Source: Patescibacteria group bacterium (lineage in GTDB: Bacteria > Patescibacteriota > Minisyncoccia > Phycocordibacterales > PALSA-1337). From it: 49,154 bases of DNA. This document shows, piece by piece, positions 1 to 14,405 of this stretch. Under the pieces are notes generated by a model, which had not been told where the DNA came from, ran no database searches, and saw only the letters and a program-made list of their open reading frames with translations. The translations under genes were made by a program, and so were the position numbers. Position 1 is the stretch's first letter; every line of letters starts with the position of its first letter. The stretch lies in the NCBI GenBank assembly GCA_040387635.1, contig JAZKDJ010000001.1, positions 517,193-566,346 on the forward strand. Reading direction: 5' to 3'.

Positions 1-1
1 G

Positions 2-190: not shown

Positions 191-193
191 TAT

Positions 194-868: not shown

Positions 869-892
869 CAATTCACTTTTTGCGTGTATAAA
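865..892 (+). promoter_or_regulatory. sigma70-like promoter for the ClpN-domain gene
   Basis: TTGACA (865-870), 16-nt spacer, TATAAA (887-892). Confidence 0.55.
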
Positions 893-946
893 TTCATGCA
901 GACGCATTGAACCTTTTGCCTGTAATACAGGCAAAACACTTGAAAT

Positions 947-1828: not shown

Positions 1829-1852
1829 TTCAACTACGAGTACTTTTTACGG

Positions 1853-1884
1853 GGGTCGCAACAGCATGTTGCGACCCTTTTTTC
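1853..1884 (+). terminator. intrinsic terminator
   Basis: GGGTCGCAAC-AGCAT-GTTGCGACCC followed by a T-run. Confidence 0.85.
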
Positions 1885-1915
1885 ATTTTTATCTTTTTGT
1901 GCTAATCTGACCCTT

Positions 1916-2806
1916 ATGTCCACTACTCCTAAAGCCGCAGCAACTATAATCGATTGCCGTCCCATCCGAGCAGAACGCAAGGAGGCTCTCGTTACTTATA
2001 TCGCTTCATGTGCAGAGCTTGGCCGTGCGGTACCGACACTCGCCATTGTTCAGGTAGGCGACAGACCGGACTCAACTGCTTTCATCAAAGCTAAGCAAAA
2101 GTTTGCCGATGAGATTGGAGCTCAGGCAGTTTTCAAACATCTTCCAGAGACGGCATCACAACGTGAACTTGTCGAACTCGTATCTGCTATTTCTGCGGAC
2201 AAAAGTATTCACGGCGTCATTGTTCAGCTTCCTTTGCCGCTTCATCTAAACAAGGATGAGATCATTGATGCTATTCATCCTTCAAAAGATGTAGATGGCC
2301 TTACGTCTCATAACACCAAAGCACTCTGGGAGGGTAAGGAGAATTGCATAACGCCGGCAACAGCACGAGGAGTTTTGGAAATTTTTGATTATCAGAATAT
2401 TTCACTCGAAGGCAAACATGTCGTGATGATGGGAAGATCTTCGCTTGTAGGGAAGCCTGTGGCGCTTTCATGTCTTCATAGAGGAGCGGCTGTTACTATT
2501 GTTCACACCAAGACTGAGAATCCTCAGGCTATTACCAAATCAGCCGATGTTCTCATTGTTGCCATTGGTAAGCCACATTTTGTTACTAAGGATTACGTAA
2601 GTGAAGGACAGATTGTTATCGATATTGGTATCACTCCTATTGATCAGGGTGGCAAAATTAAAACTGCAGGTGACGTTGACTCAGAGGGTATTAAGAATAT
2701 AGTTAGTGCCTACACTCCGGTGCCGTATGGCGTTGGACAGATGACTGTCTTGGCGCTTTTCGAAAATCTGATTGACGCGCACCAGAGGCAGTATGGTAAA
2801 ATGTAG
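1916..2806 (+). CDS. folD: bifunctional methylenetetrahydrofolate dehydrogenase/cyclohydrolase
   Basis: HGVIVQLPLP, KDVDG, TPATARG, GRSSLVGKP, GDVD and TPVPYGVGQMT motifs. Confidence 0.95.
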   Translation: MSTTPKAAATIIDCRPIRAERKEALVTYIASCAELGRAVPTLAIVQVGDRPDSTAFIKAKQKFADEIGAQAVFKHLPETASQRELVELVSAISADKSIHGVIVQLPLPLHLNKDEIIDAIHPSKDVDGLTSHNTKALWEGKENCITPATARGVLEIFDYQNISLEGKHVVMMGRSSLVGKPVALSCLHRGAAVTIVHTKTENPQAITKSADVLIVAIGKPHFVTKDYVSEGQIVIDIGITPIDQGGKIKTAGDVDSEGIKNIVSAYTPVPYGVGQMTVLALFENLIDAHQRQYGKM

Positions 2807-2853
2807 GTCAATTATCAATAAAGCCGGCAAGCAATAGGTTTGCCATTAAAAAT

Positions 2854-3699
2854 ATGAATCCAGAAACAACAACGCAGACATGGAAGAGTTATGTGTGGAG
2901 AATAGCGGCCGTCGTTGGCGTGCTCCTTGCTATATACCTCATCGCACTCGCTATAAGCGAATTCGCATCGATTAAGTATGTAGGACGAACACACATAGGT
3001 CCTTCTACGATTTCAGTGCAGGGTAAGGGCGAGAAGTCAGTACAGCCTGACATCGCAGTATTTACATACTCAGTATCTGAGCAGGCAAAGACAGTAGCTG
3101 AAGCACAGACAAAGGCTACAGCAAAAACTAACAAGGTTCTTGAGGCCCTTAAGGCAAACGGAGTAGAGGATAAGGATATTACGACTGTGTCATACACAAT
3201 CAATCCTGAATACACAACTACTCAGACTCCATGTTTTGACGCTCCAGTATCAGCAGGATCAGTTCGATCAATCGCAGGATGTACAAACTCAAACACTTCG
3301 CTCAAGGGCTACGTTGTAGCACAGTCAGTGGAAGTGAAGGTGCGACAGCTTGAGAACGCAGGAAAGCTCTTCGAGACAGTAGGTTCACTCGGAGTACAGA
3401 ATGTTTACGGACTTTCATTCTCAGTTGATAACCCAGAAGAGGTTAGAGCTGAAGTTCGAAGCCTAGCTATCGAAGATGCTAAGAAGAAGGCAGAGAAGCT
3501 TGCTCGAGATCTAGGAGTTGACCTTGAGAAAATCCAGTACTTCTACGAAGACCAGGGATATCCTCAGCCAATGTACGAGTCATACGCACGTGACGCAATG
3601 TCAGCAAAGGGAGGTGTCATGATGAACCAGGCTCCTCAGATCCCATCTGGTGAGCAGAAAGTTGTATCAAACGTTACAATTACTTACGAAATAGAATAA
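2854..3699 (+). CDS. SIMPL/DUF541 (BP26/YggE-like) domain protein with N-terminal membrane anchor
   Basis: N-terminal TM helix, then ISVQGKGEKSVQPDIA, AIEDAKKKAEKLA and IPSGEQKVVSNVTITYEI. Confidence 0.9.
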   Translation: MNPETTTQTWKSYVWRIAAVVGVLLAIYLIALAISEFASIKYVGRTHIGPSTISVQGKGEKSVQPDIAVFTYSVSEQAKTVAEAQTKATAKTNKVLEALKANGVEDKDITTVSYTINPEYTTTQTPCFDAPVSAGSVRSIAGCTNSNTSLKGYVVAQSVEVKVRQLENAGKLFETVGSLGVQNVYGLSFSVDNPEEVRAEVRSLAIEDAKKKAEKLARDLGVDLEKIQYFYEDQGYPQPMYESYARDAMSAKGGVMMNQAPQIPSGEQKVVSNVTITYEIE

Positions 3700-3719
3700 G
3701 TAGGGTAAGGAAAGAAGGT

Positions 3720-3749
3720 TTGACTTTATAGTCTCAAATGAGGTACTAT
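3720..3749 (+). promoter_or_regulatory. sigma70-like promoter of secE-nusG-rplK
   Basis: TTGACT, 18-nt spacer, TACTAT. Confidence 0.55.
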
Positions 3750-3816
3750 AGCCATTAAGCCCCGGGGTAGGGGTTTTTTGGTACAAAAAAATAAGTGCTA
3801 AAAAAACAAAATCTCC

Positions 3817-3993
3817 ATGAATTTCATCAATTATATTAAAGAAAGCCGAGCAGAAATGATTCACGTTAAGTGGCCTACAAAGTCACAGGCGTTTGGATAC
3901 TCAGTGCTCGTAGTCATCGTTTCTGTAGGAGTCGCCGCATTCCTCGGACTATTTGATTATGTGTTCTCAACGCTCCTTAAGCTTATCGTTTAA
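3817..3993 (+). CDS. secE: preprotein translocase subunit SecE (58 aa, missed by the ORF track)
   Basis: Translated by hand: MNFINYIKESRAEMIHVKWPTKSQAFGYSVLVVIVSVGVAAFLGLFDYVFSTLLKLIV. Has the EMxxVxWP motif, one TM helix, and lies directly upstream of nusG. Confidence 0.95.
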   Translation: MNFINYIKESRAEMIHVKWPTKSQAFGYSVLVVIVSVGVAAFLGLFDYVFSTLLKLIV

Positions 3994-4049
3994 GTTGCTC
4001 TTTAAGTCACTTAGGGTTGAATTAATCAGCCAATTTATCTCACACTATT

Positions 4050-4595
4050 ATGTCAAAACAGCAAGCAGGAGGTGCAAGAAACTGGTACGCCATCCATACC
4101 TATGCAGGGTATGAGAATGCTGTTGCCCGAAACCTCAAACAGCGAATTGAATCCCTCGGTATGGAAGACAAAATCTTCAATGTCATTGTTCCTACTGAAA
4201 AGAAGATCAAAATCAAGGGAGGCAAGCGTGTAGAAGAGGAAGAGAAGATCTACCCTGGATATATTCTCGTGGAAATGGTTGTGACCGACGACTCATGGTA
4301 CGTGGTGCGAAATACTCCTCGCGTTACAGGATTCGTAGGAGCAGGAGTTCATCCAGTACCTCTTGATAAGACTGAAGTTGACTCTTTGTTTGCTCGAATG
4401 AATGCTGCTGACGTTAAGCACACGATCGACCTCGTTGCTGACGATATGGTGAAGATTGTCGATGGTCCATTCAAGGATCTCGAAGGTAAGGTTGCAGAAG
4501 TTGACGACAGCCGAGGTAAAATCAAGGTACTTGTGGCCATGTTCGGCCGCGAAACGCCAGTGGAGCTTGATTTCTTGCAAGTAAAGAAATTATAA
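4050..4595 (+). CDS. nusG: transcription termination/antitermination factor NusG
   Basis: WYAIHTYAGYE, YPGYILVEM, VRNTPRVTGFVG, KOW domain and FGRETPVEL. Confidence 0.98.
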   Translation: MSKQQAGGARNWYAIHTYAGYENAVARNLKQRIESLGMEDKIFNVIVPTEKKIKIKGGKRVEEEEKIYPGYILVEMVVTDDSWYVVRNTPRVTGFVGAGVHPVPLDKTEVDSLFARMNAADVKHTIDLVADDMVKIVDGPFKDLEGKVAEVDDSRGKIKVLVAMFGRETPVELDFLQVKKL

Positions 4596-4684
4596 GGTAT
4601 TCTCTACGTTACCTCAGCTTCTAGAGGGCGTGACAGAAAAGTGACACAAAAAAGCGACTCAGATTTCCAAAAACTATAACAAAT

Positions 4685-5110
4685 ATGGCTAAAAAAATTA
4701 TCAAACAACTAAAGCTCCAGATTCCTGCAGGAAAGGCCAACCCGGCTCCTCCAGTAGGTCCTGCGCTTGGTCAGGCCGGCATCAACATCGGTGACTTCGT
4801 AAAGAAGTTTAACGACGCGTCCAAAGACAAGATGGGCGACATCGTACCGGTTGTGATTACGGTATACGACGACCGAAGCTATGATTTCGTTTTGAAGACA
4901 CCTCCAGCTTCCAGCCTCATTCTCAAAGCCATTGGCGTAGAGAAGGGAGCGGGCAAGCATGCTCAGAAAAAGGCAGGATCAATTACTCGAGCTAAGATTC
5001 GAGAAATTGCAGAAAAGAAAATGCCTGACCTCAACGCAAACGACATCGAAGCAGCGATGAAGATCATCGAAGGCTCATGCCGATCAGCGGGGGTTGATAT
5101 CAAGGGATAG
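4685..5110 (+). CDS. rplK: 50S ribosomal protein L11
   Basis: [27 protein letters not shown] and KMPDLNA. Confidence 0.98.
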
Positions 5111-5131
5111 TTAAATCCTTCATACGAACCT

Positions 5132-5174
5132 ATAACAAAAACCACTCTAATGAATTTAGAGTGGTTTTTGTTAT
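5132..5174 (+). terminator. intrinsic terminator after rplK (19-bp perfect inverted repeat)
   Basis: ATAACAAAAACCACTCTAA-TGAAT-TTAGAGTGGTTTTTGTTAT. Confidence 0.8.
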
Positions 5175-5220
5175 TGTTTGATGTATAGTTTACCCAGAGA
5201 AACATCATGAGAGGGGGTCT

Positions 5221-5526
5221 ATGATTACTATCAAAAATCCAGCGAAACTGGCGGATGAAATTCGAAGGATTGCTCGTCAGGGTGCGGAGCATCCCTACAA
5301 CGCCTTTGCTGCCGAAGTAGAGAAGCTCGAGGAGCGAGATTATGAGCATCCCGAATTCATCGAAAAGTTTTGCGAGATGCTCCTCGTGGCGGTGGGAAGC
5401 GCTCCTTCAGACCAGACTGTTCAGCTACGACTCAATCTTTCCGACCTTGTTGATGTTTTGGTTGATCTCGAGAATGGCGATGTTGTGGAAGGAAACGTTC
5501 GATCTCGAATGGGGTGGGTTACGTGA
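5221..5526 (+). CDS. hypothetical protein (101 aa)
   Basis: ORF with ATG start, GAGGGG upstream, protein-like composition, bounded by terminators on both sides. Confidence 0.65.
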   Translation: MITIKNPAKLADEIRRIARQGAEHPYNAFAAEVEKLEERDYEHPEFIEKFCEMLLVAVGSAPSDQTVQLRLNLSDLVDVLVDLENGDVVEGNVRSRMGWVT

Positions 5527-5536
5527 TCTACTTATC

Positions 5537-5569
5537 AAAAAAGCGCGCGTTCGCAGACGCGCGCTTTTT
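5537..5569. terminator. bidirectional intrinsic terminator
   Basis: AAAAAAGCGCGCGT-TCGCAG-ACGCGCGCTTTTT between convergent genes. Confidence 0.85.
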
Positions 5570-5584
5570 CTTTGTTTGAGAGTT

Positions 5585-6121
5585 CTAAAGATCCCCGTGA
5601 TACTCAACCTTGTATTCCAAGAGGAGAGTTCCGGTTGCTTCGTTCACTTTGGCGCCCACTGGCTTCAGATGATGATTCAAAGGTTCATTGAAGAGGGTGA
5701 TGCCCTGTCCAAAGAAAAGAGGTTCGATGGTGAGGAACACTCTATCGACAACTCGCGCTTTCATAAAGCTGGTGTAAATCTGGGAGCCTCCACAGATCGC
5801 TACTTCCTTGATGCCTCGTGCTTCGAGGTCAGCGAGCAAATCTTTTGGATCTGCTTGGGTGTATTCAACCTTCTCAAAATCAGGCCGTACGGATACTCCT
5901 GCTTCAGGAGGTTTTCTCGTGTATACGATATTGAGGCGATCCTGAAGCGGACGGGAGAGAGTCTTGAAGGTGGTTGACCCCATGATGACAACTCCTGCGC
6001 GTTTAGTAAGTTCAACGAACCGAGCTTTGTCTTCTTTGCTGGTCCAGATGGCAGAATGTGCGGCGTCCTTGGCGATGAAGCCGTCTGCTGTAACTGCGGC
6101 GATGATGAATGCTTTAATCAT
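5585..6121 (-). CDS. folA: dihydrofolate reductase (DHFR/RibD-C fold)
   Basis: IAAVTADGFIA, W-x-S-x-E-D-x-x-x-F, VIMGSTTF, RPLQDRLNIV, ICGGSQIY and FGQG. Start taken at ATG 6121 (MIKAF). Clustered with thyA. Confidence 0.85.
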   Translation of the reverse strand: MIKAFIIAAVTADGFIAKDAAHSAIWTSKEDKARFVELTKRAGVVIMGSTTFKTLSRPLQDRLNIVYTRKPPEAGVSVRPDFEKVEYTQADPKDLLADLEARGIKEVAICGGSQIYTSFMKARVVDRVFLTIEPLFFGQGITLFNEPLNHHLKPVGAKVNEATGTLLLEYKVEYHGDL

Positions 6122-6171
6122 ATGGATATAGTCTAGCATGAGTCTATCACGAGATTAATATGCAAAATATA

Positions 6172-6217
6172 TAAAAGAAAAAGGCCGGCTCGCTGTTGGT
6201 TATTGGCGAGCCGGCCT
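6172..6217 (-). terminator. intrinsic terminator of the 6239-6790 HIT gene
   Basis: AGGCCGGCTCGC...GCGAGCCGGCCT stem with an A-run on its left (U-run on the minus strand). Confidence 0.8.
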
Positions 6218-6238
6218 CTGCATGTCTGGAGCAAATGT

Positions 6239-6790
6239 TTACGCAGCCGTTTTAACGGGTGGCACCCAATCGGGGTGATAAATGGATTGGCCACTCATCA
6301 AGCGGCTTCGAAGTTCATCGGGCAAATAGACTGTAGCGACCACAGGCCCGGTCTTGTCCGCCACATGAATGTGGGCGTGTGCGTGCACCATGGTGCCGCC
6401 GCTTCCGGAGAGTGGTCCGAATCGATGAGCAACCATACCAGCTTCAACTTGATATTTATTCTGGACCCATTCGACAATTCGGAACAGCTCGTCCATCATT
6501 CCAGGGACAGCATTCAGTTCCCGCATGTTCGTCAGGTGCTTTTTGGCAGCCATGACGAAGTGATGCTGCTGGTGCGGATACGGTGTATCGTTCAGCTTGA
6601 GCCACCAGTGCTCCCAAAGATGCGGCTCGATAGGCTTGTTCTTGAGTGTGTGGATGTGCGGCTCACAGAAGGCACATCGACCCGTTTTCTCATCGCTCGC
6701 TAACTGCCTTCGATATCCTGCATCGACGGCATGGCCTGCTCTGCCGATCACTTCAGGCTCTTCAGACTTTTGGTCTTCTGCCATAATCAA
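6239..6790 (-). CDS. HIT-family nucleotide hydrolase/transferase (diverged paralogue of 8341-8799)
   Basis: CAFC zinc motif, NDTPY, KKH, and RFG...GGTMVHAHAHIH histidine triad. Confidence 0.8.
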   Translation of the reverse strand: MIMAEDQKSEEPEVIGRAGHAVDAGYRRQLASDEKTGRCAFCEPHIHTLKNKPIEPHLWEHWWLKLNDTPYPHQQHHFVMAAKKHLTNMRELNAVPGMMDELFRIVEWVQNKYQVEAGMVAHRFGPLSGSGGTMVHAHAHIHVADKTGPVVATVYLPDELRSRLMSGQSIYHPDWVPPVKTAA

Positions 6791-6807
6791 TATTCTTTCT
6801 GGCGTTT

Positions 6808-6877
6808 ATACTACCCACTAAAGACACAAAGTCAACGAATGGCTAGATTGACCATGGTCTTTTTGATTATGTATACT
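6808..6877. promoter_or_regulatory. back-to-back sigma70-like promoters
   Basis: Plus strand: TTGACC(6848)-N18-TATACT(6872-6877). Minus strand: TTGACT(6835-6830)-N16-TAGTAT(6813-6808). Confidence 0.55.
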
Positions 6878-6915
6878 TAGCGTACAATCCGCATAACAGA
6901 AACACTTTTTACACC

Positions 6916-7512
6916 ATGTCAAAGACAACCATCAAAAATCTCTTTAGCTTCAACTCGGACGTCAAAACTCGATATGTCCAAAATCATGAGGAGCTCAAAA
7001 AGACTATCGATCTTTGTAAGAAGATGGGATACAGGATCGTGCTCACACAAGGAGTCTTTGATCTTATTCATGAGGGTCACGCAAACTATTTAGAGAAGGC
7101 GAGAGCGTATGGCGATATGCTTATTGTTGGCATTGATTCCGATGAGCTGACTCGAAAACGAAAAGGACCCAACCGCCCGATTGTTCCTCAGAGTGAACGA
7201 ATCCGCATGCTTTCGCATCTTCGACACGTGGATATTATTGCTTTGCGAGACCTTGATCATGATATAGGTCATCTCATCCGGGTTATTGAACCTGATGTAT
7301 TGGTTGTTTCTGAGACTACTAAGGACTTTGGAAAAAAGCTTCAGATGGAATATAAGCCATTCTGCAAAAAAATTGTTATCTTGCCTGCTCAAGGAACAGC
7401 ACATACGTCAGCTCGAATTCGAAATCTTACTATAGAAGGTGCAGAACAGCTTGCGACTGAGATCAGCAAAATCACTCAGGATTTTATTAAGAAAATTAGG
7501 AATGCAAAATAA
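6916..7512 (+). CDS. cytidylyltransferase-like nucleotidyltransferase (TagD/RfaE-II/RibL, HIGH superfamily)
   Basis: TQGVFDLIHEGH, GIDSD, KGPNRPIVPQSER, PDVLV and TSARI. Confidence 0.9.
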   Translation: MSKTTIKNLFSFNSDVKTRYVQNHEELKKTIDLCKKMGYRIVLTQGVFDLIHEGHANYLEKARAYGDMLIVGIDSDELTRKRKGPNRPIVPQSERIRMLSHLRHVDIIALRDLDHDIGHLIRVIEPDVLVVSETTKDFGKKLQMEYKPFCKKIVILPAQGTAHTSARIRNLTIEGAEQLATEISKITQDFIKKIRNAK

Positions 7513-8338
7513 AACGGCGCTTGTTTGCTATGTTCCAGTTCTGCATGAGGGGTATATAAAGTTCTTCAGCAAATACCCAGGTGCAACTCTTTATATTTTA
7601 GGACGTGACGTGATCATTGATTATTTGTCGCTTGTTCGAGATCCTCGAGGAATGGATCCTGAGGTTTTGAAGACGCCAATTGAATCGTTGGGAATTTTTA
7701 GTGAAGTGAAGGTACTTACGAAAAAGGACCTTGAGAATTTTTCAATTGAAAATATTGTCATGCCTGACGAAAATGTCACTCGAGATTTGGCGGCTAAATA
7801 CTTTGTTGGGAAAAAAGTGGTATTTGAATCAGTTTTCCTTCGTTGGGATCAGATCAAGTCTACAACTGAGTTCGTAGTTCCTGCTGATCGTGTAATATCA
7901 ACCGATGAGGCTGACAAAGAGATTATGGCTAAAGCTATGAAGGTAGCAGACCGTAGCCCTGATTGGTGGCGCCAGATTGCGGCTATTATCATTAAAGATG
8001 GGAAAGTTGTTTCAGAAACTTACAACACACATTTGCCATCTGATTTTCATCTTCAAAAAAATGGTGATCCACGAAGTAATTTTAACGCTGGCGAAATGCA
8101 GCAGATTTTCACCTCCATTCACGCAGAAGCTCGTGGTATAGCTGAGGCCGCAAACAAGGGAATAAGTCTGGATGGGGCAGTAGCTTATGTAACGACGTTT
8201 CCATGTCCTAACTGTGCACGACTAATGATGTTTGCTGGTATCAAAAAAGTCTATTACTCCAAAGGCTACTCACTCCTTGATGCTGAGAACATTTTGAAGA
8301 TTGCTGGAATTGAGATCGTGATGGTGAAGATGGATTAG
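7502..8338 (+). CDS. dCMP deaminase-family protein with an N-terminal degenerate nucleotidyltransferase-like domain
   Basis: C-terminal HAE and PCPNC zinc motifs with IKKVYY. The N-terminal ~130 aa start YVPVLHEGY, similar to FDLIHEGH of the upstream gene. ATG at 7502 overlaps the upstream stop. Confidence 0.88.
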   Translation: MQNKTALVCYVPVLHEGYIKFFSKYPGATLYILGRDVIIDYLSLVRDPRGMDPEVLKTPIESLGIFSEVKVLTKKDLENFSIENIVMPDENVTRDLAAKYFVGKKVVFESVFLRWDQIKSTTEFVVPADRVISTDEADKEIMAKAMKVADRSPDWWRQIAAIIIKDGKVVSETYNTHLPSDFHLQKNGDPRSNFNAGEMQQIFTSIHAEARGIAEAANKGISLDGAVAYVTTFPCPNCARLMMFAGIKKVYYSKGYSLLDAENILKIAGIEIVMVKMD

Positions 8339-8340
8339 AT

Positions 8341-8799
8341 TTATCCAACTCTCGCAACTAAACCGCTCCACTCTTTTTTCTTGGTGTAATCTGGATCGCT
8401 TGGATCTGATTGAATGATATGTGCGTGCAGGTGGCTTACTGAAGCTCCTGTATATTGTGTGTCGCCAAAGCGCATCATGAGAGCGCCTCCTGTTATATTG
8501 CGTTCTTTGCACACCTCGTCCATGAGGTCTTTGAGTTCAAGCCATGCTTCTTTCGAGAGTTCGCTTTCGTGCTTGATGTGATCCTTATGTATTAGAAGGA
8601 TATGGTGCTTGGTGGGCTTGTAGGGATACATGTTATCCGTGACTTTCCAGAATTTGGTTTCTTTAAGAATCGGATTTTTATGGTAATTTTCGAGTTGTTC
8701 TGGACAGAACGGGCAAACGCCGTCTTGTTTAATTTTATTGATAGTCTCTTCATATTTAGTTCCCGGGCGGGCGTTGTTGAGGTTTACGAAGTCACTCAT
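8341..8799 (-). CDS. HIT-family nucleotide hydrolase
   Basis: CPFC, NMYPY, HILLIHKDH and RFG...GASVSHLHAHII. Confidence 0.9.
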   Translation of the reverse strand: MSDFVNLNNARPGTKYEETINKIKQDGVCPFCPEQLENYHKNPILKETKFWKVTDNMYPYKPTKHHILLIHKDHIKHESELSKEAWLELKDLMDEVCKERNITGGALMMRFGDTQYTGASVSHLHAHIIQSDPSDPDYTKKKEWSGLVARVG

Positions 8800-8808
8800 G
8801 GTTTTGGA

Positions 8809-9696
8809 TCAAACTGGTGTAGGGATAAGCATTTTAGGATGTGGTTCGTAGTCGGTGACGGTGAAGTGTTCAGGTCGGAAGTCGAAGATGTCCTTGATGT
8901 TTGGATCAAGGGTAACTGTAGGGAAGCGGCGAGGTTCTCTCTGGAGGAGTTCTTTGACCTTCTCATACTGATTCTCATACATATGTGCGTCTGAGAATGT
9001 GTGAACATATTCCTTTGGCTTGTAGCCTGTAACCTGGGCAAGCATCATAAGGAATGCTGCGTACTGCATCATGTTGAAGGGAACTCCTACAGGAATGTCG
9101 CCTGATCGCTGGAAATGGTGGAGAGACATTTCGTTGGTCTCAGGGAAAATGAGGACGTGCATCCAACCGTGGCAGGGTGCTACGACAACCTTTCGTTTGA
9201 GCTCTTTGTGCTGAAGGGTGTACTGAGGAATCCAAGGAGTGACGAGATGCGTTCGGAGGAAGGGCATATCCTTGATCTGTTTGATGAGATGCTTGATCTG
9301 ATTGAATGGTTCACCTTCAGCTGTAGGGAAGGTTGCCCATGCTGCACCGTATGATCCAGGTCCGAGGTCTCCAGCTTCAAGTCCGAATATCGCACACTTC
9401 TCAGGAGTTACCCATCGATCCCACCAAGGGCAGCCGAATTTTGAAAGCTCTTCGTGAGTATGAGCTCCGTGGAGAAAGGCAATGTGCTCACCGAGTGCGC
9501 CAGCAATAAATTTTCCTGAAAGATCACGTTCAGTAATCATTGGAAAACCGTTCTTCATATCAAACCTGAATTGATGTCCAAGGATCATTTTCGATTTGAT
9601 ACCGTGGATTGGATTTACCTCTGTACCCTCATTCAAAATCTTGGTTAATAGGTCGCGATACTGTGTATCGATTGTTCGCTCGCTGTATGGTTTCAT
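8809..9696 (-). CDS. thyA: thymidylate synthase (divergent)
   Basis: GFPMIT, WWDRW, DLGPGSYG, APCH (catalytic Cys), QRSGD, GVPFN (dUMP-specifying Asn) and DAHMY. Confidence 0.93.
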   Translation of the reverse strand: MKPYSERTIDTQYRDLLTKILNEGTEVNPIHGIKSKMILGHQFRFDMKNGFPMITERDLSGKFIAGALGEHIAFLHGAHTHEELSKFGCPWWDRWVTPEKCAIFGLEAGDLGPGSYGAAWATFPTAEGEPFNQIKHLIKQIKDMPFLRTHLVTPWIPQYTLQHKELKRKVVVAPCHGWMHVLIFPETNEMSLHHFQRSGDIPVGVPFNMMQYAAFLMMLAQVTGYKPKEYVHTFSDAHMYENQYEKVKELLQREPRRFPTVTLDPNIKDIFDFRPEHFTVTDYEPHPKMLIPTPV

Positions 9697-9765
9697 ACCT
9701 CGTATTGTACTACAATGGAAACATTGTAAAACCGGAATTTATAGCAAACACACATTAAGAAACAC

Positions 9766-10191
9766 ATGGAAATCAAAGTCAAAAAAGTTCGTGAAGGATC
9801 AAAGTTGCCGACATATGCCCACCTCGGGGATGTCGGAATGGATGTGTATGCAACAGAGGATTATGAGCTCAAGCCGGGTGAGCGAAGGGTGTTTTTCGTT
9901 GGATTTGCTTTAGAGTTTCCTGTTGGATATGCCGCTATCGTCAAAGACAAATCCAGCCTACCTAACAAAGCGGGGCTTCATACTATGGGAGGAGTTTATG
10001 ACGCTGGCTATAGAGGGGAATATAACATTCAGCTCATTAATCTTGGGCAGGAGGCTTACAAGATAAGTAATGGTGACAAGATCGCACAGATTGTGGTTTT
10101 TCCAGTGGCTATATGTACGCTCAAAGAAACCGAAGAGCTTTCAGAAAGCAGCCGAGGCGAGGGAAGATTTGGAAGTACGGGAAAGCAGTAA
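9766..10191 (+). CDS. dut: trimeric dUTPase
   Basis: GDVGMD, KSS, GVYDAGYRGE, DKIAQ and RGEGRFGSTG (motifs I-V). Confidence 0.96.
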   Translation: MEIKVKKVREGSKLPTYAHLGDVGMDVYATEDYELKPGERRVFFVGFALEFPVGYAAIVKDKSSLPNKAGLHTMGGVYDAGYRGEYNIQLINLGQEAYKISNGDKIAQIVVFPVAICTLKETEELSESSRGEGRFGSTGKQ

Positions 10192-10275
10192 TACTTCGTG
10201 GTCGGAGGCTGTTGAGAGTGTATTGCGAAAATCTCCATTTGGGGCTAAATTTAAATACAGATACTTTGACTTCGC

Positions 10276-10761
10276 ATGAGACTTATCATCAGCGAGCTGG
10301 AAGATTGTGCCTACGACGTGAGAGGGCAATTGAGTAAGCAGCCAGGTGATCTCACGCCAATACATACCTTTCCTGGATTCACCGAAGCTTTCGAATCCAT
10401 GAAGTGCTTTCGTGCGCTCGTGACGGTAGGAGACTTTCGCGAGAAATTCCGCATCCTGCATCTCCTGGGTATCACCAGGTGTTTCGATTACATCAAGATA
10501 TGCACAACTGAACAGCAGAAGTGCGTTGAGATCGGCCGCTTGTCGTTCATGCTCGGGATCAACGAACCCTCAGAGGGTCTGGTCATCGGAAGCTGTCTCC
10601 ATTCGGAGATCGTGTATGGTAATGCAGCAACGTGCACCACAGCACACTTGCAGGTAGGAAAGTATGGAAGCAGGATTCCTACTGATTGCCTTGAAGTACC
10701 CACCTTTACATTGAAGTCGTGGGATGAATTCCCACTGCTCCAAAGAGACCTTCATTTTTGA
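10276..10761 (+). CDS. degenerate HAD-like hydrolase domain protein
   Basis: MRLIISELED (motif I position), FPG, LVTVG (motif II) and LVIGSCLHSEIVYGNAATCTT (motif IV-like, catalytic Asp replaced). Confidence 0.55.
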   Translation: MRLIISELEDCAYDVRGQLSKQPGDLTPIHTFPGFTEAFESMKCFRALVTVGDFREKFRILHLLGITRCFDYIKICTTEQQKCVEIGRLSFMLGINEPSEGLVIGSCLHSEIVYGNAATCTTAHLQVGKYGSRIPTDCLEVPTFTLKSWDEFPLLQRDLHF

Positions 10762-10791
10762 CCCGCTTATACGGCAGGTCGGAAACAACGG

Positions 10792-10819
10792 GCGCCGCCA
10801 TCGGGACGGCGCTTTTTTT
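10792..10819 (+). terminator. intrinsic terminator
   Basis: GCGCCG-CCATCGGGA-CGGCGC followed by TTTTTTT. Confidence 0.7.
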
Positions 10820-10957
10820 CTTTTCTTAACATCCAGGTGCAGCTATGATATCGTACGGGTATGATCTAATACCCTGATTTGAGTCACATATTCGGAATTT
10901 ATCAGATATTTACTGAAAATTTACTTTTATTTTATTCCTTACACCTATACTAATCCA

Positions 10958-12169
10958 ATGAAAGACACTCAAATCAAAAAACTAATCGAGGCTGAGAAGA
11001 AGCGACAGAAAAGCGTTATTAACCTCATCGCGTCAGAGAACATTGTTTCGAAGGATGTACTCGAAGCTCTTGGCTCAGAACTTACCAACAAATATGCGGA
11101 AGGATATCCTCACAAGAGATATTACGGGGGACAGACTTTCATAGACAAAATTGAAGACGTTTGCAAAGAGCGTGCATTGAAGCTCTTCGGATTAAGCGAT
11201 GGTATGTGGCATGTGAACGTGCAGGCACTCTCAGGATCACCGGCGAACCTCGCAGTCTTTCTCGCAGCTGCTCCTCTGGGATCAAAGATTATGGGTATGA
11301 CACTGTCTCATGGTGGTCACCTAACGCATGGTCAGAAAGTTTCTATGACAGGAAAAGCTTGGGTTCAGGTTCCATTCGGAGTTGATGAGAAGACAGAGAT
11401 GATTGATTATGATGCACTCAAAAAGCTTGCAGTAGAGGAGAAGCCAGCAGTTATCGTAGCGGGATTCACTGCGTACCCTAGAACTGTTGATTTCAAGAAG
11501 TTCCGTGATATTGCTGATGCATGCGGCGCAGTCCTTATGGTAGACATGTCACACTTTGCTGGACTTGTAGCGGGTAAGGCATACTCATCACCGTTTGAAC
11601 ATGCGGATGTTGTTACTACGACTGTACATAAAACATTACGAGGTCCGCGCTCAGCTTTGATTTTCTCAAAGAAAAACGTAAACGTACTGAAGACTATTGC
11701 TGATGGAACTACGAAAGAGCAGTCACTCTCAGAGCTTATTGATAAGGCGATTTTCCCGGGACTCCAGGGAGGTCCTCACATGAATCAGATTGCAGCGGTG
11801 GCGGTGGCGCTCAAGGAAGCGGCAGCTCCAGCTTTCAAAAAATACGCACAGCAGGTAAAGAAAAACGCTACAGCTCTCGCAAGCGAACTGCAGAAATTGG
11901 GCTGGAGAATCATATCCGGTGGAACTGACAGCCATCTTGTACTCGTTGATACGTGGATGGGAGGGAAGGGTGTGAGTGGAACAGAAGCTAGTGACAGGCT
12001 TGAGAAGGCAGGTATTATCGTTAACAAAAATACTATTCCAGGTGAAACTCGTTCTGCATTTGATCCGTCAGGAATTAGACTAGGAAGCGCGGCTGAAACT
12101 ACTCGAGGTAAAAAAGAAAAGGATTTCGTGGTTATCGCAAGGAAAATTGATAAGGTATTGAGGAAGTAG
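10958..12169 (+). CDS. glyA: serine hydroxymethyltransferase
   Basis: NLIASEN, NKYAEGYP, HGGHLTHG, TTTVHKTLRGPR (PLP Lys) and FPGLQGGP. Confidence 0.98.
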   Translation: MKDTQIKKLIEAEKKRQKSVINLIASENIVSKDVLEALGSELTNKYAEGYPHKRYYGGQTFIDKIEDVCKERALKLFGLSDGMWHVNVQALSGSPANLAVFLAAAPLGSKIMGMTLSHGGHLTHGQKVSMTGKAWVQVPFGVDEKTEMIDYDALKKLAVEEKPAVIVAGFTAYPRTVDFKKFRDIADACGAVLMVDMSHFAGLVAGKAYSSPFEHADVVTTTVHKTLRGPRSALIFSKKNVNVLKTIADGTTKEQSLSELIDKAIFPGLQGGPHMNQIAAVAVALKEAAAPAFKKYAQQVKKNATALASELQKLGWRIISGGTDSHLVLVDTWMGGKGVSGTEASDRLEKAGIIVNKNTIPGETRSAFDPSGIRLGSAAETTRGKKEKDFVVIARKIDKVLRK

Positions 12170-12180
12170 GTTGTATAAAA

Positions 12181-12223
12181 TAAAAAATTAAAACGAAGAA
12201 CCCGCGTTCCTGATGAACGCGGG
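12181..12223 (-). terminator. intrinsic terminator on the minus strand (possibly bidirectional)
   Basis: CCCGCGTTC-CTGAT-GAACGCGGG with an A-rich left flank. Confidence 0.7.
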
Positions 12224-12570
12224 GCTTGAAGCGATATGGTCTTGGAGATTAACCTTGTTATCCTACGGCCACCACGGGGCGTCGGGCAAGTCTGGGTTCT
12301 CCTTTGACAGGCACCAGGGTCGTTTCGCTCGTCGAGCGGGGAACAGACCGAAGTGTCGGCGACTTCTCTTTTAATGCACGGAGAGGAACCGATGGCTCGG
12401 GGCCAAAACGATCATGATCCGCACATTTCCATGGTCCAGGGCTTGCTTCGTGCCCTGGTCGTTGCTTCCCCAGAAATCGTAAAGTGTGTTCTCAAATCTA
12501 GATAGATTGAGGTAGACCGGGTTGGGAACCAAGAGTCACATGGACTAGGTTTTTTGCTATAAACGTGGTC
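12195..12570 (-). ncRNA. candidate structured ncRNA or small-ORF transcript between glyA and argS
   Basis: Minus-strand promoter TTGACT(12605-12600)-N16-TATAAA with extended TG, terminator at ~12200, several GC hairpins, and no convincing ATG ORF. Confidence 0.3.
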
Positions 12571-12641
12571 TAATCTATTTATAACATAGATGGCTTCAAA
12601 GTCAATAAGGCGCCAAAAAAGGGCCATGGTAGAATGCTTCC

Positions 12642-14405
12642 ATGACAATTTCAGGGATCTCAGAACAAATAATTCGCGCTGTCAACACCATTCTTAAAGA
12701 CATGGGAGTAGCAGAACCTCGAGCTACTCTTGAGCATCCTGAGAACATTCTCCATGGTGACCTCTCAACAAACGCGGCTCTCGCGTATGCCAAAGAATTG
12801 AAGATGAATCCACGCGAACTTGCAGGAAAGATTCTGACTGCTCTTGGCGACTATAAGTTAGAGCACGTAGACAAGAATGAGAGCGCTGGTCCAGGTTTCA
12901 TTAATTTTCAGATCAATCCAGAGTTCATCGGCACAGAGATCGTAAGAATATCTGACGATGAGAAATTCGGCAGGACGCCTGTGCTCAAGAGCAAAAAGAT
13001 TGTTGTTGAGTATACTGATCCAAACGCATTCAAAGTTTTTCATATCGGTCACCTCATGTCGAACTCCATTGGAGAATCCATCTCAAGGATTATTGATTAC
13101 TCCGGTGCGACAGTGGTGCGACTATGCTATCCAAGTGACATTGGCCTTCATATTGCTAAGGCTGTGTGGGCTATCAAAAATAATTTAAAAGAACTTCCTT
13201 CTGAGGACACGGCTATTACCCTGAGGACTGATTTCTTAGGTAAGATGTATGTATATGGAACGGCACAGTATGAAGAATCTCCTGAAGTAAAAGCCGAGAT
13301 CGATAGCATCAACAAGAAGTTATTTGAGAAAAGCGACAAGGAGCTCAATGATATTTATGAGAAGGGCAGGCGATGGAGCTTCGAGCATTTCGAGGCGCTC
13401 TACAAAAAGCTTGGCACAAAGTTTGATGGATATATCTACGAAAGCGAGGTTGCAGAACCAGGCAAAAAAATTGTTCTTGCTCACGTGGGTAAGGTTTTCC
13501 AAGAAAGCGACGGTGCGATAGTTTTTAAAGGAGAGGACTACGGACTTCACACACGCGTCTTCCTCAACTCACAAGGTTTGCCAACATACGAAGCAAAAGA
13601 AATCGGACTTAACACCAAGAAGTTCGCAGACATCCCGGATATTGATACTTCTATTGTTCTTACTGGTAATGAACAGAATGAATATTTCAAAGTAGTCAGA
13701 AAAGCCCTTGAACTCATTGATCCAAAGATTGGTACTCGTACTCATCATATTGGTCACGGTATGCTTCGATCAACCGCAGGCAAGATGTCATCACGAAAGG
13801 GAAATGTGATAACTGGCGAATCGCTCATTGAGGAGATGGAGGAAATGACTCTTGAGAAAATGGCTGACAGGGAAATGACTGATGCTGAAAAAAAGATTGT
13901 GGCTACAGATGTTGCTATTGGTGCTATCAGATATTCCATCTTGCGTCAGGCGCCGGGAGGAAACATCATCTATGATCCTGAGAAATCAGTTTCATTCGAA
14001 GGCGATTCTGGACCATATCTCCAGTATGCGGCCGTGCGTGCTCTGACCGTCATTCAGAAAGCAAATGAAGCCGGACTCAAAAAGTTTTCAATTAAAGATA
14101 TTCTTCCAGAGAGCGGATTCATTAATCAGGATTCTTTTGCTGTTACCGCAGGAACTCTCGAGCGCATGATGGTGCGATTCCCAGAAATGGTGGAGCGAGC
14201 ATGTAAAGAATATGCACCGCATCACATTACGGGATATCTCACAGAGCTTGCAGGACTTTTCAATAGTTTCTATGCTGGAAACAAAATTATCGATCCGACA
14301 AAGCCTGCAGAATCTTCGTACAGACTTTCAGTAACGAAGGCCTTTGCAACAGTCATGACCAACGGACTCTATCTACTCGGAATCAACGTGCCACCAAAGA
14401 TGTAA
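12642..14405 (+). CDS. argS: arginine--tRNA ligase
   Basis: HGDLSTN, AGPGFINF, VEYTDPNAFKVFHIGH, KMSSRKG and GDSGPYLQYA. Confidence 0.97.
   Translation: MTISGISEQIIRAVNTILKDMGVAEPRATLEHPENILHGDLSTNAALAYAKELKMNPRELAGKILTALGDYKLEHVDKNESAGPGFINFQINPEFIGTEIVRISDDEKFGRTPVLKSKKIVVEYTDPNAFKVFHIGHLMSNSIGESISRIIDYSGATVVRLCYPSDIGLHIAKAVWAIKNNLKELPSEDTAITLRTDFLGKMYVYGTAQYEESPEVKAEIDSINKKLFEKSDKELNDIYEKGRRWSFEHFEALYKKLGTKFDGYIYESEVAEPGKKIVLAHVGKVFQESDGAIVFKGEDYGLHTRVFLNSQGLPTYEAKEIGLNTKKFADIPDIDTSIVLTGNEQNEYFKVVRKALELIDPKIGTRTHHIGHGMLRSTAGKMSSRKGNVITGESLIEEMEEMTLEKMADREMTDAEKKIVATDVAIGAIRYSILRQAPGGNIIYDPEKSVSFEGDSGPYLQYAAVRALTVIQKANEAGLKKFSIKDILPESGFINQDSFAVTAGTLERMMVRFPEMVERACKEYAPHHITGYLTELAGLFNSFYAGNKIIDPTKPAESSYRLSVTKAFATVMTNGLYLLGINVPPKM

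What the first reader, a model, noticed from the sequence alone, without database searches (positions are those of the whole stretch)
5585..12169. Thymidylate cluster with a nucleotidyltransferase, two HIT hydrolases and an NTase-deaminase fusion: possible dTMP route through a nucleotidylated intermediate
Seen: folA, HIT, HIGH-motif nucleotidyltransferase, dCMP deaminase with a degenerate HIGH-like N-terminal domain, HIT, thyA, dut, HAD-like gene and glyA are contiguous, with folD 3 kb upstream. The NTase and deaminase overlap, and thyA and the HIT are 9 nt apart. Established: dCMP deaminase and dUTPase supply dUMP, and ThyA/DHFR/GlyA form the thymidylate cycle. That pathway needs no nucleotidyltransferase or HIT enzyme. 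TagD/RfaE-type enzymes transfer NMP onto a phosphomonoester, and HIT enzymes cleave NMP from such products. There is no teichoic acid or heptose gene here to explain the NTase. Inference: the NTase caps a pyrimidine deoxynucleotide (e.g. N-pp-dC/dU), deaminase and ThyA act on the capped form, and the HIT releases dTMP or dTDP. An alternative is salvage of host NDP-conjugates.
Basis: partly seen in the sequence, partly recalled or inferred. Interest (0 to 1): 0.85.

Follow-up and report, generated by a model that had tools for sequence, protein, structure and literature searches.

The report
Thymidylate genes with nucleotidyltransferase and HIT
A small group of ultra-small bacteria makes the DNA letter T with a fixed four-gene set in which two extra enzymes and an altered thymidylate synthase suggest, but do not prove, that the nucleotide carries a removable chemical handle during the pathway.

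Summary
The genes are real, except that the "HAD-like" ORF has no support. The window lies in a 566-kb Patescibacteria genome.

The core is NTase→[NTase-like domain + dCMP deaminase], convergent with ThyA→HIT. In 80 loci anchored on the fused deaminase, the NTase lies directly upstream in 80, the HIT downstream in 79 and ThyA in 77.

The module is rare and close to all-or-none:
- The HIT family occurs in 16 of 401 sampled Patescibacteria.
- The fused deaminase sits beside it in 20 of 21 HIT-positive genomes.

Module ThyAs lack two of the four dUMP-phosphate arginines: R21 is kept in 2 of 77 and R127 in 0 of 77. Thirty canonical Patescibacteria ThyAs keep both, 30 of 30.

The deaminase lacks the canonical allosteric motif in 81 of 81 sequences. 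Its extra domain has a cytidylyltransferase fold.

Fusions link the parts: NTase–N-domain–deaminase, ATP-cone–NTase–NUDIX–deaminase, DHFR–HIT and DHFR–TS.

Best reading (about 0.35): a handle is put on the 5'-phosphate before deamination and methylation, and the HIT removes it. No chemistry is shown. A bypass of dTMP kinase is not robustly supported.

The parts
1916..2806 (+). folD (methylene-THF dehydrogenase/cyclohydrolase), context gene of the folate cycle
   Evidence: THF_DHG_CYH_C 3.6e-52 and THF_DHG_CYH 1.3e-30. Within 10 kb in 12 of 80 related loci.
5538..5569 (.). Bidirectional terminator-like hairpin that closes the folA side of the cluster
   Evidence: 14-bp stem with T runs on both strands. 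Only weak Rfam matches below the gathering score lie here.
5585..6139 (-). Dihydrofolate reductase-like gene (RibD_C/DHFR_1 type)
   Evidence: RibD_C 3.4e-20 and DHFR_1 1.1e-15. In 50 of 80 related loci. Fused to ThyA in L004, L010 and L030.
6239..6790 (-). HIT1, a divergent lineage-specific paralogue of HIT2
   Evidence: H-A-H-A-H-I-H and C-A-F-C motifs. 25% identity to HIT2. No Pfam hit at threshold. In most related loci there is no separate gene at this place.
6808..6877 (.). Divergent promoter-like pair between HIT1 and the NTase
   Evidence: Plus strand: TTGACC-18-TATACT, 10 of 12. Minus strand: TTGACT-16-TAGTAT, 9 of 12. These are consensus matches only.
6916..7512 (+). Nucleotidyltransferase of the RfaE-domain-II / ECT / GCT group, with intact HxGH
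   Evidence: PF01467 6.1e-20. rfaE_dom_II 100.7 bits, below its cut-off. Closest solved: human ECT 109 bits and HldC 93 bits. Directly upstream of the deaminase in 80 of 80 loci. Family invariants G46, D49, H52, G54, H55, R82, K83, R87, P88, R169.
7502..7906 (+). N-terminal domain of the deaminase: a degenerate cytidylyltransferase-fold domain with an H-x-G-Y motif
   Evidence: Model pLDDT 91. Best PDB folds are Fom1 CyTase (TM 0.61/0.63, E 4.4e-3), 3glv, GCT, CCT, NMNAT and HldC. H15 81 of 81, G17 81 of 81, Y18 79 of 81, R49 78 of 81, R114 81 of 81. hhalign to the NTase family is not significant.
7907..8338 (+). dCMP-deaminase domain with HAE and PCxxC, but without the canonical allosteric motif
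   Evidence: PF00383 1.1e-17. Foldseek to T4, S. mutans, S-TIM5 and human dCMP deaminases, E 4e-11 to 2e-9. The G(Y/W)N(A/G) motif is present in 0 of 81 (motif as defined in PMC12088426).
8341..8799 (-). HIT2, a HIT-family enzyme co-oriented with and 9 nt downstream of thyA
   Evidence: HIT 29.6 bits and DcpS_C 32.9 bits. In 79 of 80 loci. Family motif H-L-H-A-[H/N/Q/G] with the first two His invariant. Closest solved are Hint-like HP0404 (E 3e-6) and Fhit. DHFR-HIT fusions exist.
8809..9696 (-). Thymidylate synthase ThyA of a divergent clade with a remodelled dUMP-phosphate pocket
   Evidence: PF00303 231 bits. Aligned to solved TS, R21 is I30 and R127 is T149. The clade keeps C175, R197, S198, N208, H238 and Y240. 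R at the R21 position in 2 of 77 and at the R127 position in 0 of 77, against 30 of 30 in canonical Patescibacteria ThyAs.
9766..10191 (+). dUTPase (dut)
   Evidence: dUTPase 1.9e-23. TIGR00576 126.8 bits, above its cut-off. Within 10 kb in 32 of 80 loci.
10276..10761 (+). Unverified and possibly not a gene.
   Evidence: No family hit. 0 of 80 loci. 0 of 5 related genomes.
10958..12169 (+). Serine hydroxymethyltransferase (glyA)
   Evidence: SHMT 6.2e-159. Within 10 kb in 35 of 80 loci.

Best explanation
This is a conserved module that is rare and close to all-or-none in Patescibacteria. It replaces the ordinary dCMP deaminase / ThyA pair.

Proposed mechanism (inferred, not shown):
1. The RfaE-II/ECT-type nucleotidyltransferase esterifies the 5'-phosphate of the pyrimidine deoxynucleotide. 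It could adenylylate or cytidylylate dCMP to give N-pp-dC. Alternatively it could use dCTP plus a small phospho-alcohol to give dCDP-X.
2. The deaminase converts the capped dC to capped dU. It holds the handle with its catalytically degenerate NTase-fold N-domain.
3. The module ThyA methylates the capped dU. Its phosphate pocket has lost two of its four arginines.
4. The HIT enzyme, co-transcribed with thyA and sometimes fused to DHFR, removes the handle and releases dTMP. In many carriers an ordinary Tmk then takes over.

Shown here: the genes, the synteny, the co-occurrence, the fusions, the residue changes and the folds. Inferred: every chemical step.
For: Synteny:
- NTase lies directly upstream of the deaminase on the same strand in 80 of 80 loci.
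- HIT is present in 79 of 80 and ThyA in 77 of 80.
- The loci span deaminase identities of 41-57% and many candidate phyla named in the record titles.

Operon logic:
- NTase→deaminase overlap by 11 nt here.
- thyA→HIT are 9 nt apart.
- The order [DHFR-]ThyA→HIT recurs.

All-or-none co-occurrence:
- The HIT family is in 16 of 401 sampled Patescibacteria, and all 16 have a ThyA match.
- For 12 of those 16 the listed coordinates show ThyA adjacent to the HIT.
- The N-domain deaminase lies next to the HIT in 20 of 21 genomes. The single miss is at a contig edge.

ThyA pocket:
- The canonical R21 position is I, Q, F or P in 75 of 77 module ThyAs.
- The R127 position is never R (0 of 77). R-T-H occurs in 67 of 77.
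- The 30 best-scoring Patescibacteria ThyAs keep R21 and R126-R127 in 30 of 30. No NTase or HIT was found in their roughly 3.8-kb loci.

Deaminase:
- The extra domain has a cytidylyltransferase fold.
- Its H, G, Y and Arg residues are invariant or nearly so.
- The canonical allosteric motif is absent in 81 of 81.

Fusions:
- NTase + N-domain + deaminase in one 469-aa protein, P0272.
- ATP-cone + NTase (39% identical to this one) + NUDIX + deaminase, P0122. Here a NUDIX stands where the HIT would be. From general knowledge, both classes cleave NDP-X compounds.
- DHFR-HIT, P0133, and an Atlas cluster of 64 members.

Other points:
- No ThyX in this genome or in 5 other carriers. Of the 16 phylum-sample carriers, 15 have a single PF00303 match. 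The module ThyA therefore looks like the only thymidylate synthase.
- No heptosyl- or glycerophosphotransferase was found that would use a classical RfaE or TagD product.
Against: - No assay exists. The NTase donor and acceptor are unknown.
[quoted passage not shown] R127A keeps intermediate activity (PMC11026382, passages). The pocket change therefore does not prove a changed substrate.
- dut lies in the cluster here and within 10 kb in 32 of 80 loci. It makes free dUMP, which ThyA would be expected to use.
- tmk is adjacent to thyA in L050 and L056 and within 10 kb in 7 of 80 loci. The output there is presumably plain dTMP. This is compatible with a hydrolytic HIT but equally with a wholly conventional pathway.
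- Homology of the N-domain to the NTase is not significant by hhalign (probability 2.4%). The fold matches have modest E-values of 4e-3 and weaker.
- The canonical ThyA comparison set was picked as the best Pfam scorers, so it is canonical by construction.
- P0122, P0121 and P0272 are single sequences. P0272 could be a frameshift artefact of two overlapping genes.
Confidence: 0.35

Rival explanations
1. Conventional chemistry with a feeder. The deaminase and ThyA use free dCMP and dUMP. The NTase and HIT (or NUDIX) together convert dCTP from the reductase into dCMP through a transient dCDP-X. The net reaction is dCTP → dCMP + PPi, which supplies the deaminase.
For: - The genome has an RNR and an NDK but no dCTP-deaminase-type route was looked for beyond dut.
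- The NTase is linked to the deaminase by overlap and by fusion.
- P0122 joins NTase, NUDIX and deaminase.
- tmk adjacency and dut fit free monophosphates.
- R127 is substitutable (PMC4304848, passages).
Against: - A single NUDIX or MazG-type enzyme would do this job, so the NTase is superfluous (established knowledge).
- It does not explain why the HIT is tied to thyA and DHFR rather than to the deaminase.
- It does not explain why ThyA loses R21 and R127 only in module carriers.
- It does not explain why the deaminase carries an NTase-fold domain.
Confidence: 0.22
2. Regulatory circuit. The NTase-fold N-domain is an allosteric nucleotide sensor that replaces the lost dCTP/dTTP site of the deaminase. 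The NTase makes a dinucleotide or NDP-X effector and the HIT degrades it. Substrates remain free monophosphates.
For: - The canonical allosteric motif G(Y/W)N(A/G) is absent in 81 of 81 (motif from PMC12088426, passages).
- The N-domain keeps ligand-binding-type invariants but has Y in place of the second catalytic His.
- P0122 carries an ATP-cone, which is a known allosteric module.
- The HIT family's closest solved relatives are Hint and Fhit, which cleave dinucleoside polyphosphates (function from general knowledge).
Against: - It does not explain the ThyA pocket change.
- It does not explain the thyA-HIT and DHFR-HIT linkage.
- A dedicated effector synthase and hydrolase for one deaminase has no precedent that I know of (recalled).
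Confidence: 0.15
3. Co-location without shared chemistry. The NTase is the cell's only HIGH-type adenylyltransferase and serves a cofactor (NAD, FAD or CoA-type) or a salvage reaction on host NDP-conjugates. The HIT is a housekeeping Hint. They merely share regulation with the thymidylate genes.
For: - There is only one PF01467 domain in this 566-kb genome, so no separate NadD or CoaD was found.
- There are weak NCBIfam hits to archaeal-type PPAT (51.7 bits) and NMNAT (16.6 bits).
- A second, ordinary HIT gene exists elsewhere in the genome at 66 bits.
Against: - The module is in only 16 of 401 Patescibacteria, which is too rare for a universal cofactor enzyme.
- Synteny is 80 of 80.
- The NTase is fused in frame to the deaminase, and the HIT to DHFR.
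- The best family scores are to RfaE-II, ECT and HldC, not to NadD or CoaD.
Confidence: 0.08

Closest known systems
Classical dCMP deaminase → ThyA → DHFR/SHMT thymidylate cycle (Gram-positive bacteria, eukaryotes, phage T4)
   Same: The same enzyme families and the same cycle partners are present: DHFR, SHMT, FolD and dUTPase. ThyA keeps the catalytic Cys, N177, R166/S167 and H207/Y209 equivalents. The deaminase keeps HAE and PCxxC.
   Different: Two obligatory extra genes are present, the NTase and the HIT. ThyA lacks the R21 and R127 equivalents. The deaminase has an added NTase-fold domain and lacks the allosteric motif.
Leloir-pathway logic: a sugar-1-P nucleotidyltransferase plus the HIT-superfamily transferase GalT acting on an NDP-linked intermediate
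   Same: A HIGH-type or NDP-forming transferase is paired with a HIT enzyme that acts on a nucleoside-diphosphate conjugate. The third residue of the HIT motif is variable (H, N, Q or G) in this family. GalT has Q there (recalled).
   Different: The HIT2 profile matches GalT and Ap4A phosphorylase only at E 0.3-0.4, and Hint/Fhit better. The moiety carried would be a deoxynucleotide rather than a sugar. Nothing has been tested.
RfaE domain II / HldC (ADP-heptose), ECT, CCT and GCT cytidylyltransferases
   Same: HxGH, the central R-K-G-x-x-R-P block and a C-terminal T-S-T-S-A-R-I-R block. Best NCBIfam and PDB matches. The longer homologues are HldE bifunctional enzymes.
   Different: Scores are below every equivalog cut-off. 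There is no kinase domain, and no heptose or teichoic-acid consumer in the genome. The gene always sits next to a dCMP deaminase.
DCTD-family deaminases that accept phosphorylated forms other than dCMP (PBCV-1 bi-DCD on dCDP/dCTP; XP-12 DCTD on 5-methyl-dCTP; CDADC1 on dCTP)
   Same: They show that the DCTD fold can evolve to take substrates with more than a bare 5'-monophosphate (PMC12088426, passages). PBCV-1 bi-DCD is among the fold matches.
   Different: Those enzymes use extra Lys/Arg contacts or a second deaminase domain. Here the addition is an NTase-fold domain.
Bifunctional DHFR-TS of protozoa and plants
   Same: DHFR-TS single ORFs of 466-553 aa occur in several module loci.
   Different: They are bacterial and use a RibD_C/DHFR_1-type reductase. 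Each is followed by the HIT gene. In other loci DHFR is fused to the HIT instead.

Membership tests
Thymidylate synthase ThyA (PF00303 / TIGR03284) | Profile score above the curated cut-off | tested here: met
   PF00303 231.3 bits against 24.3. TIGR03284 191.7 against 108.35. The equivalog NF002497 scores 212.4, below its cut-off of 327.
Thymidylate synthase ThyA (PF00303 / TIGR03284) | Catalytic Cys (E. coli C146), the uracil-specifying Asn (N177), and R166/S167, D169, H207 and Y209 | tested here: met
   C175, N208, R197, S198 and D200 are invariant in 77 of 77. H238 in 75 of 77 and Y240 in 73 of 77. E. coli numbering is recalled and cross-checked against PMC4304848 passages.
Thymidylate synthase ThyA (PF00303 / TIGR03284) | Four arginines on the dUMP phosphate (R21, R126', R127', R166) | tested here: not met
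   The R21 position is I30 here, with R in 2 of 77. The R127 position is T149, with R in 0 of 77. The R126 equivalent is kept in 71 of 77 and R166 in 77 of 77. Canonical Patescibacteria ThyAs keep all four, 30 of 30.
dCMP deaminase (DCTD / ComEB type) | Zinc site H-x-E and P-C-x-x-C, and the DCTD fold | tested here: met
   H207, E209, C235 and C238 are invariant. Foldseek E 3.8e-11 to T4 and 1.3e-10 to S. mutans. phmmer E 1.3e-14 to S-TIM5.
dCMP deaminase (DCTD / ComEB type) | Allosteric-site motif G(Y/W)N(A/G) for dCTP/dTTP | tested here: not met
   0 of 81. The first G is present in 17 of 81 and the last A/G in 0 of 81. The motif is taken from PMC12088426 passages.
dCMP deaminase (DCTD / ComEB type) | Equivalog score (TIGR02571 ComEB) | tested here: not met
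   65.3 bits against a cut-off of 219.45.
Cytidylyltransferase-like NTases (PF01467) – the stand-alone NTase | HxGH motif and a profile score above the cut-off | tested here: met
   PF01467 72.2 bits against 21. H52, G54 and H55 are invariant in 36 of 36.
RfaE domain II / HldC heptose-1-P adenylyltransferase | Equivalog score and a heptose pathway context | tested here: not met
   100.7 bits against 181.5. No PF01075 heptosyltransferase in the genome.
Glycerol-3-phosphate cytidylyltransferase (TagD/GCT) | Equivalog score and a teichoic-acid context | tested here: not met
   TIGR01518 45.3 bits against 165.4. No PF04464 in the genome.
Cytidylyltransferase-like fold – N-domain of the deaminase | Sequence membership (Pfam) and a catalytic HxGH | tested here: not met
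   No PF01467 hit on the fusion. hhalign to the NTase family gives probability 2.4%. The motif is H-x-G-Y in 79 of 81.
Cytidylyltransferase-like fold – N-domain of the deaminase | Rossmann-like HIGH-NTase fold | tested here: met
   The top PDB folds are all of this superfamily, at TM 0.49-0.63 and E 4e-3 to 5e-2. Atlas structural neighbours are PF01467 clusters at TM 0.60-0.65.
HIT superfamily | Histidine-triad motif H-φ-H-φ-H-φ-φ and a profile score | tested here: met
   PF01230 29.6 bits against 21.5. H123 and H125 are invariant. The third position is H in this genome but H, N, Q or G across the family.
GalT / Ap4A-phosphorylase branch of HIT (transferases or phosphorylases) | Specific similarity to branch members | tested here: inconclusive
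   GalT E 0.32-0.37 and Ap4A phosphorylase E 0.4, against Hint-like E 3e-6 and Fhit E 1e-3.

The most novel reading that the evidence does not exclude
Thymidylate is made on a recyclable handle, in a Leloir-like deoxynucleotide pathway. The NTase only primes the pool with N-pp-dC or dCDP-X. The deaminase and ThyA work on the conjugate. The HIT acts as a transferase or phosphorylase rather than a hydrolase. It would either pass the handle from the dT product to the next dCMP, or release dTDP directly. The second option would explain why 13 of 22 module-bearing genomes, this one included, show no dTMP kinase.
Probability: 0.12. Interest if true: 0.95.

Novelty: new variant of a known kind. Interest (0 to 1): 0.72.

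Why it matters
Thymidylate synthesis is among the best-studied pathways in biology and a major drug target, and every textbook version runs on free dUMP.

This lineage-restricted module is close to all-or-none. It adds a nucleotidyltransferase and a HIT enzyme, and its ThyA has lost two of the four phosphate-binding arginines.

If the nucleotide is conjugated during deamination and methylation, this would be a new principle in deoxynucleotide metabolism. It would also provide new enzyme specificities (ThyA, DCTD, HIT) for biotechnology.

Even if the chemistry turns out conventional, the module is a clean genomic marker. It also offers a natural experiment on how far the TS phosphate site can drift.

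The question is directly testable with four small soluble proteins.

Tried and rejected
**dTMP-kinase bypass.** This genome has no Tmk. The only PF02223 hit, at 20.6 bits, is adk, which lies between map and secY.
- Among 41 relatives, Tmk is above cut-off in 1 of 7 module carriers and in 24 of 34 others.
- In the phylum sample, 8 of 16 carriers have Tmk, against 277 of 385 others.
- tmk lies next to thyA in two module loci and within 10 kb in 7 of 80.
- I therefore do not claim a bypass. It survives only in the novel case. Related genomes are not independent and no statistical test was made.

**ThyA insertions as handle-binding elements.** Rejected. Spacer lengths vary among canonical ThyAs too.

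**Sequence homology of the N-domain to the NTase.** hhalign gave probability 2.4% and E 0.019. The aligned stretch is the HxG motif, but the result is not significant. A profile search of the PDB found nothing. Only fold comparison gave an answer.

**Foldseek with the full fusion model.** It saw only the deaminase domain.

**Complex prediction, NTase with the fused deaminase.** No verdict. Score 0.00 against a mark of 0.32, and the controls were not run. This is not used as evidence either way.

**Phage origin.** No module was found in viral contigs. P0122 gave 0 relatives. The NTase alignment gave 4 loci, none with a deaminase, HIT or ThyA.

**Rfam.** No riboswitch or known RNA in 1-14000. 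There were two matches below the gathering score.

**Literature.** Five searches found no paper describing this module. I saw only the search listings plus passages of PMC12088426, PMC4304848 and PMC11026382. Supplements are closed and were not seen. Subscription journals are not covered, so 'not in print' holds only for these searches.

**Rows dropped.**
- The ThyA alignment holds 76 of the 77 tblastn-positive loci plus the window. One ORF could not be delimited at a contig end.
- ThyA ORFs longer than 345 aa were cut to their last 300 residues for the alignment.
- The alignments A1-A4 hold subsets. A1 has 29 of the 120 listed proteins. A2 has 35 of the 76 NTase ORFs plus the window. A3 has 40 of 80 N-domains plus the window. 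A4 has 39 of the 77 HIT2 ORFs plus both window HITs. HIT1 is therefore inside A4, and its 132.8-bit score is inflated.

Full report
**What is in the window**

The window is the last 49 kb of a single 566-kb contig. Close relatives of the fused deaminase are annotated as Patescibacteria.

Gene calls and family scans give the following:
- folD, 1916-2806 (+)
- a DHFR-like reductase, 5585-6139 (-)
- a divergent HIT paralogue, HIT1, 6239-6790 (-)
- a HIGH-type nucleotidyltransferase, 6916-7512 (+)
- a 278-aa protein, 7502-8338 (+), made of an unassigned N-terminal domain of about 135 residues plus a dCMP-deaminase domain
- HIT2, 8341-8799 (-)
- thyA, 8809-9696 (-)
- dut, 9766-10191 (+)
- an orphan ORF, 10276-10761 (+)
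- glyA, 10958-12169 (+)

The NTase and deaminase genes overlap by 11 nt. thyA and HIT2 are 9 nt apart.

The genome holds a single PF01467 domain. No heptosyltransferase or TagF-type gene was found.

**Is the arrangement more than chance?**

I anchored on the fused deaminase and fetched 80 loci from species-representative genomes. At least 540 confirmed relatives exist. The window's proteins were then laid on these loci by tblastn.
- The NTase lies directly upstream on the same strand in 80 of 80.
- HIT2 lies downstream on the opposite strand in 79 of 80.
- ThyA lies beside HIT2 in 77 of 80.
- DHFR is present in 50, glyA in 35, dut in 32 and folD in 12.
- The orphan ORF is present in 0.

Two of the three ThyA misses are short contigs. 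L026 is a genuine exception, with 3.5 kb of downstream sequence and neither gene.

HIT1 mostly cross-hits the HIT2 gene, so it is a local duplication.

**How widespread is it?**

In an even sample of 401 Patescibacteria, the HIT2 family (E<=1e-20) is in 16 genomes from 15 genera. All 16 have a ThyA match. For 12 of them the listed coordinates show it adjacent to the HIT.

The N-domain deaminase lies next to the HIT in 20 of 21 HIT-positive genomes. The miss is at a contig end.

By contrast, 188 of 401 genomes have a ThyA. Most of these score 280-430 bits to Pfam, while module ThyAs score lower: the twelve with a listed bit score reach 173-279 bits.

The module is thus a rare, patchy replacement of the ordinary genes that is close to all-or-none. 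It was not found on viral contigs.

**The ThyA is unusual where it binds the phosphate**

I aligned the window ThyA to solved thymidylate synthases.
- The canonical D-R-T-G-T-G-T loop reads N-P-I-H-G-I-K.
- The canonical S-R-R reads L-R-T-H.

Across 77 module ThyAs:
- The R21 position is I in 60, Q in 8, F in 4, P in 3 and R in 2.
- The R127 position is T in 74 and never R.
- The next residue is H in 76.
- The catalytic Cys, the uracil-specifying Asn, and the R166/S167 and H207/Y209 equivalents are kept.

The 30 best-scoring Patescibacteria ThyAs keep R21 and R126-R127 in 30 of 30.

R127 is one of the four arginines on the dUMP phosphate (PMC11026382, passages).

Two caveats apply. The comparison set is canonical by the way it was chosen. 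And R127 tolerates many substitutions in E. coli (PMC4304848, passages).

**The deaminase**

The C-terminal domain is a bona fide DCTD fold with HAE and PCxxC. The allosteric G(Y/W)N(A/G) motif, as defined in PMC12088426, is absent in 81 of 81 sequences.

The N-domain was modelled alone at pLDDT 91. It matches only HIGH-nucleotidyltransferase folds: Fom1 CyTase at TM 0.61/0.63, then 3glv, GCT, CCT, NMNAT, PPAT and HldC. The Atlas's own model agrees.

Its motif is H-x-G-Y (H 81 of 81, G 81 of 81, Y 79 of 81). R49 and R114 are nearly or fully invariant. Sequence-profile homology to the neighbouring NTase is not significant.

The N-domain family has 596 representatives at 50% identity. Nearly all full-length ones are about 275-300 aa, which is the size of the fusion with the deaminase.

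**The NTase and the HIT**

The NTase keeps HxGH, the central RKGxxRP block and a C-terminal TSTSARIR block.
- Its best matches are RfaE domain II (100.7 bits, below cut-off), human ECT (109 bits) and HldC (93 bits).
- Its longer homologues are ordinary HldE enzymes.

HIT2 has two invariant histidines and a variable third position of H, N, Q or G.
- Its closest solved relatives are Hint-like and Fhit proteins.
- GalT and Ap4A phosphorylase match only at E 0.3-0.4.

**Fusions**
- P0272 is NTase + N-domain + deaminase in one 469-aa protein.
- P0122 is ATP-cone + an NTase 39% identical to this one + NUDIX + deaminase.
- P0121 is N-domain + deaminase + HAD.
- The L071 HIT gene is a DHFR-HIT fusion. 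The Atlas holds a 64-member DHFR+HIT cluster.
- L004, L010 and L030 carry DHFR-TS fusions upstream of the HIT.

These fusions tie the NTase to the deaminase, and the HIT to the ThyA/DHFR step.

**Genome context**

This genome has an RNR (PF02867) and NDK, and no NrdD. It has no ThyX, and none was found in five other carriers.

It has no recognisable dTMP kinase. Tmk status among carriers is mixed: 9 of 22 have it. tmk is adjacent to thyA in two loci. I therefore do not claim a Tmk bypass.

**Interpretation**

The most economical account of all these features together is that the pyrimidine deoxynucleotide is carried through deamination and methylation with something attached to its 5'-phosphate.
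- The NTase would install it.
- The degenerate NTase-fold domain of the deaminase would hold it.
- The less cationic ThyA pocket would tolerate it.
- The HIT would remove it.

I put this at about 0.35. Every chemical step is inference.

The rivals are:
- a dCTP→dCMP feeder (0.22)
- a regulatory circuit that replaces the lost allosteric site (0.15)
- mere co-location (0.08)

The remainder is unassigned.

**Novelty**

I found no description of the module in five literature searches, which gave listings plus passages of three papers. Source annotations call the parts 'dCMP deaminase' and 'HIT domain-containing protein'. An Atlas cluster of structural neighbours of the N-domain bears the automatic name 'adenylyltransferase/cytidyltransferase family protein'.

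I file it as a new variant of a known kind. It would be categorically new if the conjugated-intermediate chemistry is confirmed.

Noticed in passing
window 14425-18084 (+): A 1219-aa isoleucyl/valyl-type class I tRNA synthetase carries a histidine-phosphatase (His_Phos_1, 1.1e-36) domain at residues 537-705, inside the catalytic domain.
   Followed up: no
L004:11374-12774(-), L010:11266-12792(-), L030:11273-12934(-): Bacterial DHFR-TS single ORFs of 466-553 aa, with a RibD_C/DHFR_1-type reductase N-terminal to the module ThyA.
   Followed up: partly
L071:2527-3567(-): DHFR-HIT fusion protein of 346 aa, P0133. HIT frames of 316-393 aa occur in six phylum-sample genomes, and there is a 64-member DHFR+HIT Atlas cluster.
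   Followed up: partly
G000 whole genome; L082:1474-2079(-): No recognisable dTMP kinase. The only weak PF02223 hit is adk, between map and secY. There is also no ThyX and no NrdD.
   Followed up: partly
window 10192-10957: A 766-bp gap lies between dut and glyA. It holds only an orphan 161-aa ORF with no relatives, and no Rfam family.
   Followed up: partly
phylum sample, e.g. G078, G370, G060, G187, G253: Further low-scoring ThyA-like genes of 170-230 bits occur in genomes without the module. Some match only Pfam positions 2-235. Their phosphate-pocket residues were not examined.
   Followed up: no
P0122 (560 aa) and P0121 (531 aa), metagenome proteins: Unusual architectures: ATP-cone + RfaE-II-like NTase + NUDIX + dCMP deaminase, and N-domain + deaminase + HAD. 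Each is seen once.
   Followed up: partly
G027:C6:44779-45723: Two tandem HIT2-family genes lie in one related genome, matching the HIT duplication in this window.
   Followed up: no
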